From Enterobacteria phage vB_EcoM_IME340, in sequence record MH051916: a DNA stretch of 64,000 nucleotides. One strand, given 5' to 3'. Below the pieces are notes generated by a model. The model searched no databases, had not been told where the DNA came from, and saw nothing but the letters and a program-made list of their open reading frames with translations. This document shows positions 4,049-61,420 of the stretch, piece by piece. The translations under genes and the position numbers were made by a program. The first letter of the stretch is position 1, and every line of letters starts with the position of its first letter.

Positions 4049-4363
4049 ATGAAAACATATAAAGAATTTATTGCAGAATCCGCCAACCAACGCGTTGAAG
4101 GTGGTTATATTTGGATTGAACAAGTTGAGCCACCGAGCCGCACTTCTACAGGTAAATGGAAAATTACTGTTGATGGTCCTGGTGGTAAACGTAGGACTCT
4201 TAAAGAAATTAATGGGTACTATGAAGAAGCTCTTTCGGATGCAGGAACTTACATGATGCAAATCATGATTAAAAACCCTGAAAACCGTTTTGCAGCTAAA
4301 GTCTTCCGACGCATCGGTAATAAACTTTATGACGCATACTCTAAAAACTTCCCTAAAGAATAA
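4049..4363 (+). CDS. internal-protein-like head protein with CTS (104 aa), IPII-like by size
   Basis: N-terminus MKTYKEFIAES; basic small protein. Confidence 0.7.
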   Translation: MKTYKEFIAESANQRVEGGYIWIEQVEPPSRTSTGKWKITVDGPGGKRRTLKEINGYYEEALSDAGTYMMQIMIKNPENRFAAKVFRRIGNKLYDAYSKNFPKE

Positions 4364-4389: not shown

Positions 4390-4968
4390 ATGAAAACGTA
4401 TCAAGAATTTATTGCTGAAGCTTCTGTAGTAAAGGCCAAAGGCATTAATAAGGACGAGTGGAACTATCGTGGTGGAAACGGCTTTGACCCTAAAACAGCC
4501 CCTATTGAACGATACTTAGCTACAAAAGCTTCCGATTTTAAAGCTTTCGCTTGGGAAGGACTTCGCTGGCGTACCGATTTAAATATTGAAGTTGACGGAC
4601 TTAAATTTGCTCATATTGAAGATGTTGTTGCTAGTAACTTAGACGCAGCTTTTGTTAAAGCCGACAGTGATCTTCGTCGCTGGAATTTAAAACTGTTCTC
4701 TAAACAAAAAGGCCCGAAGTTTGTGCCTAAAGCCGGTAAATGGGTCATTGATAATAAATTAGCTAAGGCTGTCAACTACGCTGGTCTTGAATTCGCCAAG
4801 CACAAATCATCATGGAAAGGTCTTGATGCAATGGCTTTCCGTAAAGAATTTGCCGATGTTATGGCTAAAGGCGGCTTTAAGGCAGAAATAGATACCTCTA
4901 AAGGTACGTTTAAGGACGCTAATGTTCAGTACGCTTACGCCGTTGCTAATGCAGCCCGTGGTAATTAA
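4390..4968 (+). CDS. ipIII: internal protein III
   Basis: 192 aa; MKTYQEFIAEASVVKAKGINKDEW... matches T4 IPIII as recalled. Confidence 0.9.
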   Translation: MKTYQEFIAEASVVKAKGINKDEWNYRGGNGFDPKTAPIERYLATKASDFKAFAWEGLRWRTDLNIEVDGLKFAHIEDVVASNLDAAFVKADSDLRRWNLKLFSKQKGPKFVPKAGKWVIDNKLAKAVNYAGLEFAKHKSSWKGLDAMAFRKEFADVMAKGGFKAEIDTSKGTFKDANVQYAYAVANAARGN

Positions 4969-8215: not shown

Positions 8216-8555
8216 AATTTTGGTTTTATGTATAGGATTAATTTCATTTTCTGCTTATGCGTCAGCAGATACATCATATACTGAAATTAGGGAGTATGTG
8301 AACCGCACTGCAGCGGATTATTGTGGGAAAAATAAAGCATGCCAAGCTGAATTTGCGCAGAAATTAATATATGCATATAAAGACGGAGAAAGAGATAAAT
8401 CAAGCAGATACAAAAACGATACATTATTAAAACGATATGCTAAAAAGTGGAATACCCTAGAATGTTCAGTTGCGGAGGAAAAAGATAAAGCCGCTTGTCA
8501 TTCAATGGTTGACCGTTTAGTAGATTCTTATAATCGAGGATTGAGTACTAGATGA
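8208..8555 (+). CDS. small secreted cysteine-containing protein (115 aa)
   Basis: signal peptide MTKILVLCIGLISFSAYASA; 4 Cys. Confidence 0.55.
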   Translation: MTKILVLCIGLISFSAYASADTSYTEIREYVNRTAADYCGKNKACQAEFAQKLIYAYKDGERDKSSRYKNDTLLKRYAKKWNTLECSVAEEKDKAACHSMVDRLVDSYNRGLSTR

Positions 8556-9031
8556 TTGTAAAATATATCAAGGGCGATATTGTCGCCCTCTTTCTTGAAG
8601 GTAATATTATTGCGCACGGGTGTAACTGTTTTCATACAATGGGCAGTGGTGTAGCTGGTCAATTAGCAAGAGCCTATCCCAAAATTTTAGAAATAGATAA
8701 AACCACTACTGAGTACGGTTCTCGTGATAAATTAGGCGATATGTCTATTGTTTTTAAACATAAACCTAATGGGTTTGGCATATGTTATAACTTGTATACG
8801 CAATACGAACCAGGTCCTAATCTTGATTATGGTGCTTTAGTAAACTGCATGATAGAATTAAATCTACAGGCAGAAACCCTTTTGTTTAAACCGGTAATTT
8901 ACATTCCACGCATAGGTTGTGGTATTGCTGGCGGCGATTGGGATAAGGTTTCTAAATTAATCGACATGTTTACTCCTGATATTGATTTAATAGTGGTGGA
9001 TTATGAAAGTACATTACCCACATCCGTTTGA
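8552..9031 (+). CDS. macro-domain-like protein (putative ADP-ribose binding/hydrolase)
   Basis: GDI-(x)-HGCNCFHTMGSGVAGQ glycine loop and IPRIGCGIAGGDW resemble macro-domain signature regions; motif-based only. Confidence 0.55.
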   Translation: MIVKYIKGDIVALFLEGNIIAHGCNCFHTMGSGVAGQLARAYPKILEIDKTTTEYGSRDKLGDMSIVFKHKPNGFGICYNLYTQYEPGPNLDYGALVNCMIELNLQAETLLFKPVIYIPRIGCGIAGGDWDKVSKLIDMFTPDIDLIVVDYESTLPTSV

Positions 9032-9215
9032 TCCTAAAAACAAAGCAGTAATTATTCGTCAATGGGAACGCATTTGCCGTACTAAATGTCCAATTAATAG
9101 TCCACATGATGTAGATAAAGACTACATTGGAACATTCGTTGAATATACATTTATTGATAAGAAAGGTCGTAAACAGCATGTAGAAGAATACTGCGTAAAG
9201 GTGACATGGTTATGA
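9003..9215 (+). CDS. hypothetical protein (70 aa)
   Basis: ORF-track CDS; overlaps upstream gene end. Confidence 0.4.
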   Translation: MKVHYPHPFDPKNKAVIIRQWERICRTKCPINSPHDVDKDYIGTFVEYTFIDKKGRKQHVEEYCVKVTWL

Positions 9216-9418
9216 GCCAAACTAGTATTCTTAAAAATGCCCACTGTGAAAAGTGTAAGTGGCCGGTTGTTTTTGCTTTATGTAACGATGAAATGGCTTG
9301 TGATTTCGATTATTGGTGCTATTGTTCTAATAAAGGATGCATCAATCATAAAGGTGAAGGATTTTATTCGGGATTTTATCCTTATCCAGATTTCGTTAAA
9401 GAAGGTAAACCGAAATGA
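9212..9418 (+). CDS. small Cys-rich protein (68 aa)
   Basis: 9 Cys incl. CEKCKW and CYCSNKGC; start at ATGA overlap. Confidence 0.5.
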   Translation: MSQTSILKNAHCEKCKWPVVFALCNDEMACDFDYWCYCSNKGCINHKGEGFYSGFYPYPDFVKEGKPK

Positions 9419-9588
9419 ATAGTTCTGAGTTACAATATGAAGTGTTACGTGAACTTGATAATTTAATTGAACTCGCTGTTAATAAAGGTTTTGCCATTGG
9501 AATTGGTCAAAAAGATACTGATCATTTAACTGTGGAAATATTTAAGCAAAAGCGAATTATTTTAAAACTTCTGGAAATTAATATATGA
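9415..9588 (+). CDS. hypothetical small protein (57 aa)
   Basis: ATG overlaps upstream stop; fills gap; below ORF-track size cut-off. Confidence 0.4.
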   Translation: MNSSELQYEVLRELDNLIELAVNKGFAIGIGQKDTDHLTVEIFKQKRIILKLLEINI

Positions 9589-9770
9589 GCCTAAGCAAAG
9601 AACAAAAAGACAAACTCTTTTCTCTTATCCACGAAATTATGGATAAAAATAGTGAATTGGAAAAAGTTTGTAATGAATGCGGTCCTTTTAGCGCAAATGA
9701 ATATGAAGAACTTTCCAAAGAATTTGATAATAAAGAACAAGAACTCATTGATTATATAAATTCCTTATGA
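9585..9770 (+). CDS. small helical protein, member of a ~60-aa paralogue family
   Basis: MSLSKEQKDKLFSLI...YINSL; shares N-terminal xEQxxKL and C-terminal Y-L/I-E-x-L pattern with 5 other ORFs. Confidence 0.55.
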   Translation: MSLSKEQKDKLFSLIHEIMDKNSELEKVCNECGPFSANEYEELSKEFDNKEQELIDYINSL

Positions 9771-9955
9771 TTACTCGCGAACAAAAGAACGAAATATTAT
9801 TTTTAGTTGGTGAAATTATTAGTTTAGAAAAGGATTTGTCTTTTGAAATATCTTCTGAATATGGAGATGCCGAAACATATTACGAATTAGTAAAATCTAT
9901 CGATAAAGCTGAAAATGATTTAGAAACATATTTAGAAAATTTAACTAAGGACTAA
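9767..9955 (+). CDS. small helical protein, paralogue family member
   Basis: MITREQKNEILFLV...TYLENL. Confidence 0.55.
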   Translation: MITREQKNEILFLVGEIISLEKDLSFEISSEYGDAETYYELVKSIDKAENDLETYLENLTKD

Positions 9956-9956
9956 G

Positions 9957-10538
9957 ATGGCGAGTTTAATTTTTACTTATGCAGCAATGAATGCTGGAAA
10001 ATCTGCTTCTCTTTTGACTGCTGCGCATAATTATAAAGAACGTGGAATGAGTGTATTAGTTCTTAAGCCTGCTATTGATACTCGCGATTCTGTCTGTGAA
10101 GTCGTTTCTCGCATTGGAATTAAACAGGAAGCGAATATTATTACAGATGATATGGATATTTTCGAGTTCTATAAATGGGCTGAAGCACAAAAAGATATTC
10201 ATTGCGTATTTGTAGATGAAGCCCAGTTTTTAAAAACTGAACAAGTGCATCAATTGAGTCGAATTGTTGATACATATAATGTTCCTGTTATGGCTTATGG
10301 ATTAAGGACTGATTTCGCTGGAAAATTGTTTGAAGGTTCTAAAGAACTTTTAGCGATTGCAGATAAACTTATTGAACTAAAGGCAGTTTGTCATTGCGGC
10401 AAAAAAGCGATTATGACAGCTCGATTGATGGAAGATGGAACACCAGTTAAAGAAGGTAATCAAATCTGTATTGGTGATGAAATTTATGTTTCTTTGTGTA
10501 GAAAACACTGGAACGAATTAACTAAAAAGCTCGGTTAG
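9957..10538 (+). CDS. tk: thymidine kinase
   Basis: 193 aa; MASLIFTYAAMNAGKSASLL (P-loop) ... matches T4 Tk as recalled. Confidence 0.93.
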   Translation: MASLIFTYAAMNAGKSASLLTAAHNYKERGMSVLVLKPAIDTRDSVCEVVSRIGIKQEANIITDDMDIFEFYKWAEAQKDIHCVFVDEAQFLKTEQVHQLSRIVDTYNVPVMAYGLRTDFAGKLFEGSKELLAIADKLIELKAVCHCGKKAIMTARLMEDGTPVKEGNQICIGDEIYVSLCRKHWNELTKKLG

Positions 10539-10580
10539 TGCAAAAGTTATAAATAGGTTTATCTAACTAAAGGGGTATAT

Positions 10581-10793
10581 ATGCTACAATTAACTGAAAA
10601 GCAACTTCGCAATCTTACTGTGCTTCAATTAGATGAAATTCGTAGGGAAGTTGGAAATATCATTTCAGCTTTGCGTCGAGAAGTATCACTCAACCAATCT
10701 CCGGCAGACTATACTAGATTGCGAAATTTTGAAAAATACCTTGATAAAGTTAAGGCCGTGCATCGGCATAAAGTAAATACAGGACAAAAATGA
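10581..10793 (+). CDS. hypothetical protein (70 aa), rI.-1 position
   Basis: ORF-track CDS immediately upstream of rI. Confidence 0.5.
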
Positions 10794-10805
10794 TAGGAGG
10801 CCTTT

Positions 10806-11099
10806 ATGGCCTTAAAAGCAACGGCACTTTTTGCCACGCTAGGATTGTCATTTGTTTTATCTCCATCGATTGAAGCGAATGTCGATCCTCATTTTGATAA
10901 ATTTATGGAATCTGGTATTAGGCACGTTTATACACTTTTTGAAAATAAAAGCGTAGAATCGTCTGAACAATTCTATAGTTTTATGAGAACGACCTATAAA
11001 AATGACCCGTGCTCTTCTGATTTTGAATGTATAGAACGAGGCGCGGAGATGGCACAATCATACGCTAGAATTATGAACATTAAATTGGAGACTGAATGA
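10806..11099 (+). CDS. rI: lysis inhibition regulator RI
   Basis: 97 aa; MALKATALFATLGLSFVLSPSIEANVDPHFDKFMESGIRHVY... matches T4 RI as recalled. Confidence 0.9.
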   Translation: MALKATALFATLGLSFVLSPSIEANVDPHFDKFMESGIRHVYTLFENKSVESSEQFYSFMRTTYKNDPCSSDFECIERGAEMAQSYARIMNIKLETE

Positions 11100-11482
11100 A
11101 ATTCAGCGACTTTTCACAAAGTGGAAAACCTTCAAAGGCAGATGAATACTTAGGTTTATTAATGGCTGCACAAGCTTATTTTCATTCTGCACATTTTGAA
11201 ACTAAAAGTTATGCTAGACACAAAGCATACGATTTTATTTTCTCCGAGTTGCCAGATTTAATTGATAAATTTGGTGAGCAATATTTGGGGTATTCTGGTA
11301 GAAAATACACACCTTCAATTCCAGATGCCAGTAAACTTCCTACCGACACAATTAAAATGATTGATCGCATACTAGACCAATCTAACAGCATTTATAAAGA
11401 AATGCCTCCAGCCATCCAAAGCACGATAGATGATATTACTGGAATGTTTTACCAGAGTAAGTATCTTCTTTCCCTCGAATAA
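11096..11482 (+). CDS. hypothetical protein (128 aa), rI.1 position
   Basis: ATGA overlap with rI stop; followed by terminator. Confidence 0.55.
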
Positions 11483-11486
11483 CATT

Positions 11487-11510
11487 AGTCTCCTTCGGGA
11501 GACTTTTTTC
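11487..11510 (+). terminator. intrinsic terminator
   Basis: AGTCTCC-TTCG-GGAGACT hairpin followed by TTTTTTC. Confidence 0.7.
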
Positions 11511-11519
11511 ATTTTACCG

Positions 11520-11549
11520 GTTTACTTTCCGTTTGAGCTGTGGTACTAT
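11520..11549 (+). promoter_or_regulatory. early promoter (member of repeated promoter family)
   Basis: GTTTAC 11520-11525, TACTAT 11544-11549, followed by conserved ACAACTATC leader. Confidence 0.55.
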
Positions 11550-11577
11550 ACAACTATCGGATAAAGAGGAGAACATC

Positions 11578-11766
11578 ATGAAAATTGAAGCACTCAATCA
11601 AGAAGGAAATATCTACGTCATCATTAACGGTGATTTTTTCGTCGACATGGATGAAGTTACCAGTGAAGAACTTGAAGAACTTCTTAAGAAACGTTATGAT
11701 ATGTGTGATGAAGCTGCAACTCATATGGCGTGTGCAATATTCTCTCTTTCATATGTGGTGGAATAA
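11578..11766 (+). CDS. hypothetical small acidic protein (62 aa)
   Basis: ATG after GAGGAG SD. Confidence 0.5.
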
Positions 11767-11969
11767 TGATTAGTATCGAACAAGCAGATAAAATTAAAGA
11801 ATTGGTAGCTTTAATTCGCAAAGCAGATGAGGAACTTAGTGACTTTGCTTGGTTTTCGGCAGGCATTGCAAATAAAGGTATTGAAGAATTTGAAGCTAAA
11901 GTTGATAATGCTGTAGAAGCTTTAGATATGTTTCTTGATGAAATTATCGATCACAATACGAGAGTTTAA
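11766..11969 (+). CDS. small helical protein, paralogue family member
   Basis: [17 protein letters not shown]... Confidence 0.5.
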   Translation: MISIEQADKIKELVALIRKADEELSDFAWFSAGIANKGIEEFEAKVDNAVEALDMFLDEIIDHNTRV

Positions 11970-11971
11970 GT

Positions 11972-12166
11972 ATGCTGACACACGAACAGTTTGAAAAAAT
12001 CATTAAATTAGCACGTGATGTTGAAATAGATTCATATCAATTAGCAGTTGAGCATTGTGAAGGATATTCATACGAAGGTATAGCAGCAGCTAAAAGAGAT
12101 TTGGATAAATCTAAAGCTAAGTTAGTTCAATATCTTGAAATGATTAGGTGGAATAATGAAAACTGA
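11972..12166 (+). CDS. small helical protein, paralogue family member
   Basis: MLTHEQFEKIIKLARDV...LVQYLEMI. Confidence 0.5.
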   Translation: MLTHEQFEKIIKLARDVEIDSYQLAVEHCEGYSYEGIAAAKRDLDKSKAKLVQYLEMIRWNNEN

Positions 12167-12329
12167 AAAGCAGATGTTTTTAATGAAGCTAATTGAAGAA
12201 TATGCTAATGCAGTTTCTGACTATGAGTGTTCTTCTCGTGAAAGGGGTATAGCTTTCGCAAAAGAAGAAATGAAAATCATGGTTGATGCTCACACAAAGC
12301 TTCAGAATTTTATTGAAAACGTCATTTAA
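12156..12329 (+). CDS. small helical protein, paralogue family member (57 aa)
   Basis: MKTEKQMFLMKLIEEY...LQNFIENV; below ORF-track cut-off. Confidence 0.4.
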   Translation: MKTEKQMFLMKLIEEYANAVSDYECSSRERGIAFAKEEMKIMVDAHTKLQNFIENVI

Positions 12330-12331
12330 CG

Positions 12332-12361
12332 GTTTACAAGTTGGCAAGGTTATGGTATAGT
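12332..12361 (+). promoter_or_regulatory. early promoter
   Basis: GTTTAC 12332-12337, TATAGT 12356-12361. Confidence 0.55.
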
Positions 12362-12389
12362 AATCTTGTCAACTGCTAAGGAGAAGAGA

Positions 12390-12494
12390 ATGAAAATTTT
12401 GTTTGTTGTGTATGTGATGATTCAATATAATTACCCAATGTTTACGTATAATTTGGTGAACAACATTATTGATATTATTCAAAGGAGTATGTAA
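12390..12494 (+). CDS. possible 34-aa hydrophobic leader peptide
   Basis: strong SD AAGGAG before ATG; stop overlaps next start (TAATG); contains SD of downstream gene. Confidence 0.3.
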   Translation: MKILFVVYVMIQYNYPMFTYNLVNNIIDIIQRSM

Positions 12495-12679
12495 TGACAA
12501 GTGAGCAGGCTTTTAAATTAAGAGAATTAATTGAGACGTATAGTAGAGCTGTTCATACATCAACAATTATTGATGAATCAGCTTTCTCCGGACATGCTAA
12601 CAAGATTAAATACAAAACTCTTATGGAAGAAGCTAAAGTAAATCTTGATTCTTATATTGAAACTTTAATTGGTAAATAA
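12494..12679 (+). CDS. small helical protein, paralogue family member
   Basis: MTSEQAFKLRELIETY...SYIETL. Confidence 0.5.
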   Translation: MTSEQAFKLRELIETYSRAVHTSTIIDESAFSGHANKIKYKTLMEEAKVNLDSYIETLIGK

Positions 12680-12680
12680 T

Positions 12681-13223
12681 ATGAAAGCTGTAATTGAAAC
12701 AACTGATTTGTTCGGTGACCTGGTTATCGAAAAACGTGATAATGTATACGTTCTGACGCAGGAAGACGATAATATTACTATTCTTCCTATGGAACTGGCT
12801 GCGATTTTATCTTATGCTCCCTCAGGAGTTACCGGTGTAACTAATATTACAGGCGACCTCCAAGTTCGTTTTTATCGTGGCCTTTACGGCGGTAATATTG
12901 AAACTGAATTTATGTGTCTTTCTATCAACAATTGGGCAACATTCGTTACCAAGGTGAAAGAATTCTTGGAATCTGAAACAATCGAAACACCCGAAAAGGC
13001 TAAACTTCAATGGGCTAAAGATCGCGGTGCTAGCATTATTAATCCAGTAGCTGCAAATTATACTACGACTTTGGATGTCAAGACTTCTTATGAAGATGGC
13101 GATGTCGTACTTGTTCGCCAAATTGATGATTCTCGAGCACATATTGTCACATTTACCAAAGACGAAGCTATTGCACTAAAGACTTATCTTGATTCTGTCA
13201 TTCCAACTATGATTTCAAAGTGA
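12681..13223 (+). CDS. hypothetical protein (180 aa), paralogue of next gene
   Basis: C-terminal ...TFTKDEAIALKTYLDSVIPTM resembles ...LSKSEAEAMIKYLTTVTPSM of next ORF. Confidence 0.55.
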   Translation: MKAVIETTDLFGDLVIEKRDNVYVLTQEDDNITILPMELAAILSYAPSGVTGVTNITGDLQVRFYRGLYGGNIETEFMCLSINNWATFVTKVKEFLESETIETPEKAKLQWAKDRGASIINPVAANYTTTLDVKTSYEDGDVVLVRQIDDSRAHIVTFTKDEAIALKTYLDSVIPTMISK

Positions 13224-13229
13224 GGAAAT

Positions 13230-13751
13230 ATGTTTATTTCAAGTGGAAGTGGTTTAATTCGCGTTGAATTTAAAAATGACATCTTTCTTATTCAAGGAGA
13301 TGATATTATTAAAATGAGTTATGACGAAATCAAGAAAATTTGTCATGCTCTTGAAAGTCATGGAAAAGTGAACGCTGTTATTGATATTGGCGATTTATGG
13401 GTGACACTTTATGAAGTATCCGAAGGATTTAACATTGAAGATGAAAATAACATTTTAGCTATTGATAAAAGAACTGATTTGTTTGATGTATTAAAAGCCT
13501 ATGAGCAGTCAAATGGCGGAAGAAAAGCTGTATTGATTTATCAAAAACCGCATTCATGTGGAACTGCTTCAATCATTTCAAATATTGAAGGCGAAGTTGA
13601 TACTTATATGTGTGTTTTAAAAGCTGGTGGTGACCGTCATCCGGATTTTATTTCTATTCGTCAAAACAATGAAGAAATTTCATTGTCAAAATCAGAAGCT
13701 GAAGCTATGATTAAGTATTTAACAACCGTTACGCCTTCAATGAAAGGATAA
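13230..13751 (+). CDS. hypothetical protein (173 aa), paralogue of previous gene
   Basis: shared C-terminal motif with 12681-13223. Confidence 0.55.
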   Translation: MFISSGSGLIRVEFKNDIFLIQGDDIIKMSYDEIKKICHALESHGKVNAVIDIGDLWVTLYEVSEGFNIEDENNILAIDKRTDLFDVLKAYEQSNGGRKAVLIYQKPHSCGTASIISNIEGEVDTYMCVLKAGGDRHPDFISIRQNNEEISLSKSEAEAMIKYLTTVTPSMKG

Positions 13752-48698: not shown

Positions 48699-48863
48699 AT
48701 GAAAACATATAAAGAATTTATCAAAGAAGATATGGTAGCTGGAGATTCAGGTGGTAATCCTGAAAATATCTCTACTGGAACAACGTCAGGTGCTGTAGTA
48801 AATAAAGGTCCTGAACAGATTCCTAAAAAGAAAAAAGAGGAATCTAAAGAAAAAGAAGAGTAA
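48699..48863 (+). CDS. small protein with capsid-targeting-like N-terminus (54 aa)
   Basis: MKTYKEFIKED resembles IP CTS MKTYQEFIAE; Gly/Lys/Glu-rich tail; below ORF-track cut-off. Confidence 0.45.
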   Translation: MKTYKEFIKEDMVAGDSGGNPENISTGTTSGAVVNKGPEQIPKKKKEESKEKEE

Positions 48864-52316: not shown

Positions 52317-52802
52317 ATGGAAGCGATTTTGTTTGAAATGTATATTAGCAGTAATAGTATGTCGTTTGCTAAAGACGTTCCAATTACTGTAGCAGTAATG
52401 ATTGATAAGGGTTATTGTGACCCAATGTATCTCGTAGAAAATTTCGTTTCAATGCCAGTTCCAGAAGATGCTGAAATAAAACTTAAAAAGATTGGTATCA
52501 TTGAAACTGTACCAAATATTCCATTTAGAGCAATTGAAGCATTTACTAAATCCGAATACATTAATGTTAGCGCAGAACAATATAATGATAAACCTTTATC
52601 TTTCTATTCGTATGATTCATTATATAGTTGGAAAATAGATAAAGGAAATAAATTTATAATTGCGAGTGAAGATGCGTTATCATACTTTATTTCTTCTGTA
52701 TGGAATAGTTTACATCCAAATTTGCTAAAAATTCATGAATTTGATGATGCTCCTACTGTTGTTTTGGGTAAAGTAAATGAAAGTTCTGAAGAAAATGCTT
52801 GA
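52317..52802 (+). CDS. hypothetical protein (161 aa)
   Basis: ATG after TGAGGAAAAT. Confidence 0.5.
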
Positions 52803-52980
52803 ATGGTTCAATAGACCAAACTCAATGTACATTGACGATGGTTGGGTTGAACAAGCAAATAAAGAAATGCAGAACGAATCAGAAGAATGGATGAAATCAA
52901 TGATTAATGCTGAGAAAGAAAAGAAATTAGAACGCTCAGCGCTTAAATTGATGAGAGACATCTATGGGGATAAATCATGA
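52795..52980 (+). CDS. hypothetical protein (61 aa)
   Basis: start overlapping upstream stop. Confidence 0.4.
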
Positions 52981-61243: not shown

Positions 61244-61420
61244 ATGCCAATGTATGATTATAAATGCCAATCCGAAGATTGCGGGCATGAATATGAAAAA
61301 ATTAAAAAGATTTCTGAACGAGAAAATGATGTTTGCCCTAAATGTCATCGTTTGTCTACTCGTCGGCCTTCTGCTCCTAAGCATGTGAATGGTGGATTTT
61401 ACGACTTACTTAAAGGGTGA
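61244..61420 (+). CDS. small zinc-ribbon protein (58 aa)
   Basis: CQSEDC...CPKC four-Cys ribbon; below ORF-track cut-off. Confidence 0.4.
   Translation: MPMYDYKCQSEDCGHEYEKIKKISERENDVCPKCHRLSTRRPSAPKHVNGGFYDLLKG

What the first reader, a model, noticed from the sequence alone, without database searches (positions are those of the whole stretch)
9585..12679. Dispersed family of ~60-aa helical proteins on both sides of tk and rI
Six small ORFs (9585, 9767, 11766, 11972, 12156, 12494) share an N-terminal M-x-[ST]-x-EQ-x-x-K-[LI]...L[IV] segment and a C-terminal Y-[LI]-E-x-[LI] ending, with little else conserved. This pattern suggests a rapidly diversifying small-protein family.
Basis: seen in the sequence. 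Interest (0 to 1): 0.5.

Follow-up and report, generated by a model that had tools for sequence, protein, structure and literature searches.

The report
Six-copy helical-hairpin gene family in T4-like phage
The six small genes are real relatives of one another: a known but uncharacterised family (Pfam DUF7438) of about 60-residue two-helix proteins that T4-type phages make early in infection and do not need in laboratory hosts; their job is still unknown.

Summary
The window is a T6/RB18-like Tequatrovirus. The six ORFs are T4 tk.2, tk.1, mobD.4, mobD.3, a full-length mobD.2a, and a sixth copy that T4 lacks. All six match Pfam DUF7438 at 52-69 bits (cut-off 25).

- **Not a composition artefact.** In leave-one-orthogroup-out profiles, each left-out ORF is the top non-training hit among 413 window ORFs. 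Each also beats all 1000 of its own shuffles. A member also occurs in a 59% GC contig.
- **Exactly six.** No other ORF in the 64 kb scores, and rI.1 and the other small neighbours are unrelated.
- **Fold.** AlphaFold gives confident antiparallel two-helix hairpins (pLDDT 89 and 94). The conserved residues are an N-cap box plus the heptad core. The surface and loop vary.
- **"Rapidly diversifying" is only partly right.** The paralogues are old, with no DNA-level similarity, and orthologues are under purifying selection (dN/dS 0.03-0.38). Copy number, loop indels and tk.2/tk.1 chimeras do vary between phages.
- **T4 data.** The genes are expressed early, four of the five T4 copies are detected as protein, and knockdown has no fitness effect.
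- **Function.** My best guess, by inference only, is small acidic binders of host or defence proteins.

The family is already catalogued, so interest is modest.

The parts
9585..9770 (+). DUF7438 copy 1, orthologue of T4 tk.2 (61 aa, net charge -8). Its ATG overlaps the stop of the preceding ORF (ATGA).
   Evidence: Pfam DUF7438 68.6 bits. phrog_653. 97% identical to T4 tk.2. AlphaFold hairpin H5-30/H37-60, pLDDT 89.
9767..9955 (+). DUF7438 copy 2, orthologue of T4 tk.1 (62 aa, net charge -10). Overlaps the tk.2 stop (ATGA). It lies directly upstream of tk (9957-10538).
   Evidence: Pfam DUF7438 55.6 bits. phrog_653. 100% identical to T4 tk.1.
11766..11969 (+). DUF7438 copy 3, orthologue of T4 mobD.4 (67 aa from the ATG at 11766, net charge -9). 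This is the long-loop variant; T4 has a 60-aa short-loop allele.
   Evidence: Pfam 61.6 bits. phrog_653. Loop indel variants among 43 cluster representatives, with an invariant C-terminal 16 residues.
11972..12166 (+). DUF7438 copy 4, orthologue of T4 mobD.3 (64 aa, net charge -3).
   Evidence: Pfam 56.8 bits. phrog_653. 92% identical to T4 mobD.3.
12156..12329 (+). DUF7438 copy 5, a full-length version of T4 mobD.2a (57 aa, net charge -2). The T4 copy is cut to 38 aa.
   Evidence: Pfam 52.4 bits. phrog_2758. T4 mobD.2a is 38 aa.
12494..12679 (+). DUF7438 copy 6 (61 aa, net charge -1). No counterpart in T4. A copy sits at the same place, just upstream of the mobD.1 homologue, in Dhakavirus VR5. 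RefSeq labels it 'helicase loader' or 'kilA' without support.
   Evidence: Pfam 56.9 bits and no other family. phrog_4859. AlphaFold hairpin H3-28/H34-59, pLDDT 94. Found in 191 phage records. VR5 copy at L006 10698-10880.
11487..11548 (+). Terminator-like stem-loop (11487-11504, followed by a T run), then a T4-early-promoter-like site (GTTTAC at 11519 ... TGgTAcTAT ending 11548). Together they lie ahead of the mobD.5/mobD.4/mobD.3/mobD.2a unit. This is context, not a family member.
   Evidence: Terminator scan. Promoter read from the sequence; promoter function is inferred, not shown.
12333..12361 (+). Best sigma-70/T4-early-type promoter match in the region (TTTACA-17-TATAGT with an upstream TG). 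It lies ahead of mobD.2 (12390-12494) and copy 6. This is context.
   Evidence: Promoter scan, 10 of 12 with an extended -10. The total number of promoter-like sites in the region is not above the shuffled expectation, so the site is only suggestive.

Best explanation
**Identity (shown).** The six ORFs are paralogues of one small phage protein family, Pfam DUF7438. They correspond to T4 Tk.2, Tk.1, MobD.4, MobD.3 and MobD.2a, plus a sixth copy that T4 lacks. They lie in the accessory early-gene region around tk and rI of a T6-like Tequatrovirus.

**Structure (predicted).** Each protein is a single antiparallel two-helix hairpin of about 60 residues. Three things are conserved: an N-terminal helix-capping box (T-x-E-Q), the heptad a/d core (including small Ala/Ser positions mid-helix), and a wider hydrophobic patch at the open end, where the N- and C-termini meet. 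Almost the whole solvent-exposed surface and the loop vary. Most members are strongly acidic.

**Expression (from T4 data).** The genes are transcribed early. Four of the five T4 copies are detected as protein. They are dispensable on laboratory E. coli.

**Mechanism (inferred, not shown).** I propose the hairpin is a stable scaffold, probably pairing into Rop-like four-helix bundles through the conserved open end. Its variable surface would bind and neutralise host proteins soon after infection, as host take-over or counter-defence. Different paralogues would cover different targets or target variants, and may be partly redundant.
For: **Identity and fold**
- Family membership and statistics.
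- Hairpin fold with pLDDT 89 and 94.
- Heptad core, capping box and mean net charge of -6.5 (against about 0 for other small ORFs).

**Selection and expression**
- Purifying selection on each orthologue, dN/dS 0.03-0.38.
- In T4, MobD.3 and MobD.4 are classed early RNA/early protein, and Tk.1 and Tk.2 early RNA/middle protein (PMC9697503 supplement).
- CRISPRi-ART knockdown of tk.1, tk.2, mobD.2a, mobD.3 and mobD.4 is 'Not Fit', meaning no fitness effect (PMC11879866 supplement).
- The nrdC.11-mobD.3 block can be deleted (PMC9825161).

**Accessory character**
- Copy number varies from 0 to 6 between genera. The sixth copy is present or absent among Tequatroviruses.
- Other small genes of unknown fold in the same accessory stretch of T4 have turned out to be counter-defence factors. 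nrdC.5 acts against Dsr1 (PMC9391042) and nrdC.1 against Septu (bioRxiv 10.1101/2025.11.20.689424).
Against: - No experiment or database links any member to a partner or phenotype. There are no literature hits for the gene names, accessions or sequences.
- None of the five T4 genes is mentioned in the main text of the HIDEN-SEQ screen against defence systems and clinical isolates. Its supplementary tables were not checked.
- None of the family's six N-terminal hexapeptides occurs in the supplements of the accessory-gene screen.
- Oligomeric state could not be predicted with the tools available.
- Three copies (mobD.3, mobD.2a and the sixth) are only weakly acidic.
- A variable surface is also what relaxed constraint on a small scaffold would produce.
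Confidence: 0.4

Rival explanations
1. Nucleic-acid mimic or nucleic-acid-binding regulator. The acidic hairpins would dimerise into four-helix bundles. These would either imitate DNA/RNA to trap DNA-binding host proteins (as Ocr or Arn do) or, like Rop, bind RNA structures and tune early phage gene expression.
Against: Three of the six copies are nearly neutral (-1 to -3). There is no sequence relation to Rop or any other solved protein (best E 0.17). Acidic proteins do not bind RNA directly. No conserved charged surface positions exist beyond the N-cap E/Q.
Confidence: 0.15
2. Accessory modulators of the pathways encoded next to them. Candidates are lysis inhibition (rI, rI.1, rI.-1), nucleotide salvage (tk), or the macro-domain protein Tk.4.
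For: The order macro domain - (small ORFs) - DUF7438 - tk is kept in Tequatro-, Mosig-, Dhaka-, Jiaoda- and Moonvirus and in a metagenomic relative. The second cluster follows rI/rI.-1 directly. A paper title and abstract in the search results (PMC2962797; not read) report that rI.1 and rI.-1 affect lysis inhibition.
Against: Conserved order in a vertically inherited early transcription unit is weak evidence for a functional link. phiR1-RT, PS2 and leE keep tk and rI without any DUF7438 copy within 8 kb. Profile comparison shows no relation to rI.1 or the other neighbours. The family member in a 59% GC contig has a different neighbourhood.
Confidence: 0.1
3. Little or no present function. On this view the ORFs are tolerated passengers of the hyperplastic region, duplicated and shuffled by recombination.
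For: Dispensable in the laboratory. T4 carries a truncated copy and has lost the sixth. Chimeric and fused variants occur. The region is of the kind described as hyperplastic and shuffled between promoter/stem-loop cassettes (PMC2839356).
Against: Reading frames are intact across five genera. dN/dS is 0.03-0.38. The core and capping residues are kept across 38 clusters at 50% identity. Proteins are detected in T4-infected cells. The C-terminal 16 residues of mobD.4 are invariant in 43 cluster representatives.
Confidence: 0.1
4. Compositional artefact. On this view the shared motifs arise by chance in AT-rich small ORFs. This is the refutation condition the first reader named.
For: Pairwise similarity is mostly insignificant.
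Against: Leave-one-out profiles, the shuffle controls and the curated Pfam thresholds are all passed. The neighbouring AT-rich small ORFs score nothing. A member exists in a 59% GC contig.
Confidence: 0.01
5. The sixth copy is a replicative helicase loader, as RefSeq and phrog_4859 name it. Alternatively it is a KilA anti-repressor, or mobD.4 is a molybdopterin-guanine dinucleotide biosynthesis protein MobD, as some records name them.
For: Only the labels themselves.
Against: Pfam, NCBIfam and PADLOC give no hit other than DUF7438. A 61-residue hairpin has none of the domains of known loaders. The 'MobD' label evidently comes from the T4 gene name mobD.4, which refers to the neighbouring homing endonuclease gene mobD. 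The other T6 labels in AP018814 are visibly shifted or wrong: tk is called 'hypothetical protein' and a neighbour 'rI antiholin'.
Confidence: 0.02

Closest known systems
Pfam DUF7438 (PF24219); T4 Tk.1, Tk.2, MobD.3, MobD.4, MobD.2a; PHROGs 653, 2758, 4859
   Same: The six ORFs are members. They match the model over its full length above the curated threshold. They are 92-100% identical to the T4 or T6 proteins, except mobD.4, which is 81% identical to T4's short-loop allele (96% to T6's).
   Different: Nothing differs in kind. This phage has six intact copies, where T4 has four intact and one truncated. PHROGs splits the family into three groups that Pfam and my profiles unite.
Rop (ColE1 repressor of primer), a 63-residue helical hairpin that forms a homodimeric four-helix bundle
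   Different: No sequence relation. Dimerisation and RNA binding are untested. Rop is plasmid-encoded and single-copy.
T-even internal proteins (IpI, IpII, IpIII and relatives)
   Same: Both are families of small T-even accessory proteins that share a short conserved N-terminal segment and little else. Both vary in number between phages. Individual Ip proteins block particular variants of host type IV restriction enzymes (PMC12373910).
   Different: The Ip capsid-targeting sequence MKTY[QK]EFI[AK]E is present in three other ORFs of this window but not in the six hairpins. The hairpins also lack a consistent [LI]-x-E cleavage site. Here the conserved N-terminus is a helix cap plus core, not a signal peptide.
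Other small T4 accessory early proteins with counter-defence roles (Dmd, TifA, AdfA, NrdC.5, NrdC.1)
   Same: All are small, early and non-essential in the laboratory, and are encoded in variable regions. NrdC.5 and NrdC.1 lie further downstream in T4's mobD-nrdC accessory stretch, a few kb beyond the second DUF7438 cluster.
   Different: No sequence or demonstrated functional relation. None of those forms a five- or six-copy paralogous family.

Membership tests
Pfam DUF7438 (PF24219) | Whole-protein score above the curated gathering threshold (25 bits) | tested here: met
   68.6, 55.6, 61.6, 56.8, 52.4 and 56.9 bits for the six ORFs.
Pfam DUF7438 (PF24219) | The match spans essentially the whole 57-position model and the whole protein | tested here: met
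   Profile positions 1-56/57 of 57 are matched in every case.
Pfam DUF7438 (PF24219) | Similarity independent of each copy's own orthologues being in the model | tested here: met
   Leave-one-orthogroup-out HMMs recover each left-out ORF at E 1e-3 to 2e-6, with 0 of 1000 shuffles reaching the real score.
Pfam DUF7438 (PF24219) | Common fold among divergent members | tested here: met
   The tk.2-type and the sixth copy (19% identical) both give two-helix hairpins, pLDDT 89 and 94. BFVD top hits are other T4-like phage members.
Rop family | Sequence match to the Rop family or to solved Rop chains | tested here: not met
   No Rop hit in Pfam at E <= 1. The PDB profile search has a best E of 0.17, to unrelated proteins.
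Rop family | Helical hairpin of about 60 residues | tested here: met
Rop family | Homodimeric four-helix bundle that binds RNA kissing complexes | not testable with these tools
   Only single-chain prediction was available.
T-even internal proteins (Ip) | N-terminal capsid-targeting sequence MKTY[QK]EFI[AK]E ending in a prohead-protease site | tested here: not met
   The pattern is found in window ORFs 4049-4363, 4390-4968 and 48699-48863 only. The six hairpins lack it and have no consistent [LI]-x-E near residue 10.
Replicative helicase loaders (the label of phrog_4859 and RefSeq) | Recognisable loader domain (T4 gp59-type, DnaC/DnaI-type or similar) | tested here: not met
   Copy 6 hits only DUF7438 in Pfam and nothing in NCBIfam.
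Molybdopterin-guanine dinucleotide biosynthesis proteins (the RefSeq label on mobD.4) | MobA/MobB-type domain | tested here: not met
   No such hit in Pfam or NCBIfam. The label follows the T4 gene name mobD.4.
Known anti-phage defence system components (PADLOC) | Match to any PADLOC model | tested here: not met
   No family at E <= 1 for any of the six.

The most novel reading that the evidence does not exclude
The DUF7438 hairpin may be a phage-encoded, diversifiable binder scaffold. The conserved open end would let the co-expressed paralogues form homo- and hetero-dimeric four-helix bundles. The variable surfaces and loops would then give a small combinatorial repertoire, each member neutralising a different host defence or take-over target. 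Mutual redundancy would hide single-gene phenotypes in the knockdown and transposon screens done so far.
Probability: 0.15. Interest if true: 0.6.

Novelty: already known. Interest (0 to 1): 0.3.

Why it matters
T4 is the best-studied lytic phage, yet roughly half of its genes have no known role. A five- or six-copy family of expressed, conserved, dispensable early proteins is a compact target for closing part of that gap.

If the hairpins bind host defence or take-over targets, they would add a new class of small inhibitors. They would also explain why single knockdowns are silent.

As it stands, the finding rediscovers a catalogued family (Pfam DUF7438). This work adds the following:
- a whole-family view across three PHROGs;
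- a fold prediction;
- an account of what is and is not conserved;
- copy-number history across genera;
- correction of three misleading database labels.

Tried and rejected
**Seventh-member candidates**
- rI.1 (10581-10793) starts LTEKQ and ends EKYLDKV, so it looked like a member. It is not significant with the family HMM, and hhalign probability is 1.6%. Rejected.
- The small neighbours 9415, 9206, 9003 and mobD.5 were tested as distant relatives. hhalign probability was at most 1.2%. Rejected.
- The weak hits at 52777-52980 and 61244-61420 in one leave-one-out run (E 0.03-0.04) were not confirmed by the broader profile (E 0.13 or absent).

**Alternative readings**
- Ip-like capsid targeting of the conserved N-terminus: rejected.
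- Recent duplication or gene conversion: no DNA repeats between copies.

**Structure and family searches that gave nothing useful**
- The AlphaFold database library was not available.
- The PDB sequence-profile search found nothing.
- NCBIfam and PADLOC gave no hits.

**Searches for related loci and literature**
- The search for related loci with the family alignment failed because no stretch is conserved enough.
- tblastn with the divergent member P0138 found nothing in the phage collection.
- Literature searches by gene name, Pfam/PHROG id, UniProt accession, UniProt entry name and peptide sequence found no functional study.
- The T4 genome review PMC150520 is not held.

**Not possible**
- Multimer prediction, because of the single-chain tool and the input restriction.
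Full report
**Where the window comes from.** The 3.3 kb around the finding is 97-98% identical to many Tequatrovirus genomes, including AV119, JK23, RB18 and T6. The + strand of the window is the reverse of the T4 map. Using the T4 record, the genes line up as follows.

| Window start | T4 gene or family |
|---|---|
| 8552 | tk.4 (macro domain) |
| 9003 | tk.3 (DUF7202) |
| 9206, 9415 | two small genes that T4 lacks |
| 9585 | tk.2 |
| 9767 | tk.1 |
| 9957 | tk |
| 10581 | rI.1 |
| 10806 | rI |
| 11096 | rI.-1 |
| 11578 | mobD.5 |
| 11766 | mobD.4 |
| 11972 | mobD.3 |
| 12156 | mobD.2a, full length here (57 aa), cut to 38 aa in T4 |
| 12390 | mobD.2 |
| 12494 | a gene absent from T4 |
| 12681, 13230 | two mobD.1-like genes |

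- The six ORFs are present as described.
- Their alignment shows the N-terminal and C-terminal motifs, with 21-34% pairwise identity to the first sequence.
- All six match Pfam DUF7438 (PF24219) over the full 57-position model at 52-69 bits, against a curated cut-off of 25.
- PHROGs splits them into phrog_653 (four copies), phrog_2758 (mobD.2a type) and phrog_4859 (sixth copy), with weaker cross-hits between these groups.

The Pfam model probably contains orthologues of each copy, so I made an independent test. I collected 110 cluster representatives and assigned them to the six orthogroups. I then built six profiles, each leaving one orthogroup out. In every case the left-out window ORF was the best non-training hit among all 413 ORFs of at least 35 aa in the window. 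E-values were 1e-3 to 2e-6, and the next best was 0.03-0.4. Each real score (14-23 bits) also exceeded all 1000 shuffles of the same sequence, whose maximum was 14.7.

Several further results rule out an AT-rich composition artefact.
- The C-terminal pattern occurs in exactly these six of 249 ORFs of 40-90 aa.
- Pairwise comparison alone is weak, except tk.2 versus tk.1.
- A profile of 32 diverse members finds exactly six hits in the 64 kb (E 2e-16 to 2e-21), with nothing else below E 0.13.
- rI.1, which superficially resembles the motif, and the other small neighbours are unrelated by profile-profile comparison.
- One member sits in a 59% GC phage-like contig.

**What the proteins look like.** AlphaFold2 with family alignments gives a confident antiparallel two-helix hairpin for two copies that are only 19% identical. 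The tk.2-type has helices 5-30 and 37-60 at pLDDT 89. The sixth copy has helices 3-28 and 34-59 at pLDDT 94.

Column statistics on 32 diverse members show what is conserved.
- A T-x-E-Q box sits at the very start of helix 1. It is a helix N-cap with the N3 glutamine.
- Hydrophobic positions recur at 3-4 residue spacing in both helices, which is a heptad a/d core. Mid-helix positions are Ala or Ala/Ser.
- Extra hydrophobic positions lie next to the core at the open end of the hairpin, where the two conserved segments face each other.

Nearly all other positions are variable. Within orthogroups, substitutions and indels concentrate in the loop and the helix ends beside it. By contrast, the last 16 residues of mobD.4 are invariant in 43 cluster representatives.

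The family is acidic, with mean net charge -6.5. The window copies range from -10 to -1.

**Distribution and history.** An exhaustive HMMER search of 1.84 billion cluster representatives found only 38 clusters at E <= 1e-3. Two of these (936 and 1364 aa) look like chance matches to repeat proteins.

Scanning about 8 kb on each side of tk (12 kb around the hit for Merlin) in representative phages gave the following copy numbers.

| Phage (genus or group) | Copies |
|---|---|
| T6 and this window (Tequatrovirus) | 6 |
| T4 (Tequatrovirus) | 4 intact plus 1 truncated |
| VR5 (Dhakavirus) | 3 |
| Merlin (Moonvirus) | 2 strong plus 1 weak |
| moha (Mosigvirus) | 2 |
| JD18 (Jiaodavirus) | 1 |
| phiR1-RT (Tegunavirus), PS2, leE | 0 |

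- A metagenomic T4-like contig has a single copy, upstream of tk.
- The copy just upstream of tk, after the macro-domain gene, is the most widely kept. It is probably the oldest.
- The T4 genome annotation in the CRISPRi-ART supplement assigns phrog_653 to exactly four T4 genes. T4 therefore has no further copies elsewhere.
- The sixth copy occurs in 191 phage records, whereas about 548 carry the region. VR5 has a copy at the same position, just upstream of its mobD.1 homologue. T4 therefore most likely lost it.

The paralogues share no DNA repeats. Orthologue comparisons give dN/dS of 0.03-0.38, similar to rI.1 and rI. The counts are small, and synonymous sites are saturated between genera.

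The duplications are therefore old and each copy is maintained by selection. 'Rapidly diversifying' overstates the case.

Turnover is nonetheless visible.
- mobD.4 has loop indel alleles (60 versus 67 aa).
- T4's mobD.2a is truncated.
- Natural tk.2/tk.1 hybrids exist in which helix 1 comes from one paralogue and helix 2 from the other. One is in phage UFV-AREG1 (64 aa) and another is 50 aa long.

**Expression and dispensability (from T4 literature).**
- In the time-resolved omics study of T4, MobD.3 and MobD.4 are classed early RNA/early protein.
- Tk.1 and Tk.2 are classed early RNA/middle protein.
- MobD.2a has early RNA and no protein call (PMC9697503 supplement).
- In the CRISPRi-ART screen, all five T4 genes are 'Not Fit' on knockdown (PMC11879866 supplement).
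- The block nrdC.11-mobD.3 can be lost from viable genome-reduced T4 (PMC9825161).

In the window, the genes are packed with overlapping or abutting start and stop codons.
- A terminator-like hairpin at 11487-11504 is followed by an early-promoter-like site.
- The best promoter match in the region lies at 12333-12361.
- Promoter function is inferred only.

**What they most likely do.** No experiment bears on this, and I found no paper on the family. I infer function from four features: early expression, small size, dispensability in the laboratory, and variable copy number. Two further features point the same way: a conserved scaffold with a variable, mostly acidic surface, and the precedent of nearby T4 accessory genes. 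Of those, nrdC.5 acts against Dsr1, nrdC.1 against Septu, and Ip2/Ip3 against type IV restriction variants.

The most likely role is therefore binding and neutralising host proteins early in infection. The proteins probably act as dimeric four-helix bundles, with paralogues covering different targets.

I put this at about 0.4. Identity as DUF7438 paralogues I put at about 0.97.

The rivals are a DNA-mimic or Rop-like regulator, modulation of the neighbouring lysis-inhibition or nucleotide functions, and no current function.

Weak negative evidence comes from two screens. The five T4 genes do not appear in the main text of HIDEN-SEQ, which was run against several defence systems and clinical isolates. 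A search for the family's six N-terminal hexapeptides in the supplements of an accessory-gene screen also found nothing. Redundancy among paralogues could explain the silence.

**Database labels.** Three labels on these genes are unsupported: 'helicase loader' (phrog_4859 and RefSeq), 'kilA anti-repressor' (T6 record), and 'molybdopterin-guanine dinucleotide biosynthesis protein MobD' (RefSeq, on mobD.4). No family search supports any of them. The last evidently derives from the T4 gene name.

**Verdict.** The feature is real and correctly described. It is not new, however. It is a curated domain of unknown function, and the ORFs are annotated in hundreds of near-identical genomes.

Noticed in passing
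window 8552-9031: The macro-domain gene (tk.4 position; Pfam Macro) is only 57-58% identical in protein to T4 and T6 Tk.4. The genes a few hundred bases downstream are 94-100% identical. It is 88% identical to a metagenomic allele (L013), 81% to L011 and 73% to the VR5 copy. This looks like an allele replacement by recombination.
   Followed up: partly
window 12681-13223 and 13230-13751: Two adjacent genes both carry the T4_y05I N- and C-terminal domains (MobD.1-like 'putative transcription factor'). They form a second tandem paralogue pair, directly downstream of the hairpin cluster. T4 has one copy followed by the mobD homing endonuclease.
   Followed up: no
window 9206-9418 and 9415-9588: Two small genes lie between tk.3 and tk.2 with no counterpart in the T4 record stretch searched. 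One is a Phage_zn_bind protein (70 aa). The other is a 57-aa phrog_3452 protein with no Pfam family. Both are present in T6 and in metagenomic contig L013.
   Followed up: partly
proteins P0050 (Escherichia phage UFV-AREG1, 64 aa) and P0097 (50 aa): These are natural hybrids: the N-terminal half of tk.2 is joined in register to the C-terminal half of tk.1. They probably arose as deletions by recombination between the adjacent paralogues. They show that helix 1 and helix 2 of different paralogues can be combined in an open reading frame.
   Followed up: partly
L014 6001-6354 (metagenomic contig, 59% GC): A 117-aa protein has an N-terminal DUF7438 domain (41 bits) and a 57-residue C-terminal extension with no family. 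It lies among many small same-strand ORFs of a phage-like contig unrelated to T4, next to a DUF4325 protein. It is the only clear member seen outside T4-like phages.
   Followed up: partly
window 11567-11586 and 12379-12398: mobD.5 and mobD.2 are the first genes after the two early-promoter-like sites. Their translation start regions are near-identical (AGGAGAAnnnnATGAAAATT) and contain GGAG. The T4 record describes GGAG as the motif cut by the RegB endoribonuclease. Copy 6 also has AAGGAG before its start. Possible RegB control was not tested.
   Followed up: no
window 48699-48863: A 54-aa ORF begins MKTYKEFIKE, the capsid-targeting sequence shared with the two internal-protein genes at 4049-4363 and 4390-4968. 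It is a possible small internal protein lying far from the ip locus.
   Followed up: no
public records AP018814 / NC_054907 (T6), NC_000866 (T4): Product names in this region are unreliable. In AP018814, tk is 'hypothetical protein', small ORFs are 'rI antiholin', 'tail assembly protein' and 'integrase and recombinase', and tk.2 is called from a later start (44 aa). RefSeq names mobD.4 a molybdopterin biosynthesis protein, and calls tk.3 'Tk.2'.
   Followed up: yes
proteins P0109 and P0125: The N-terminal 40 residues of MobD.3 are fused to the C-terminus of NrdC.11. One of the two comes from a T4 derivative named T4583L. The fusion matches the nrdC.11-mobD.3 deletion reported for genome-reduced T4.
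   Followed up: no
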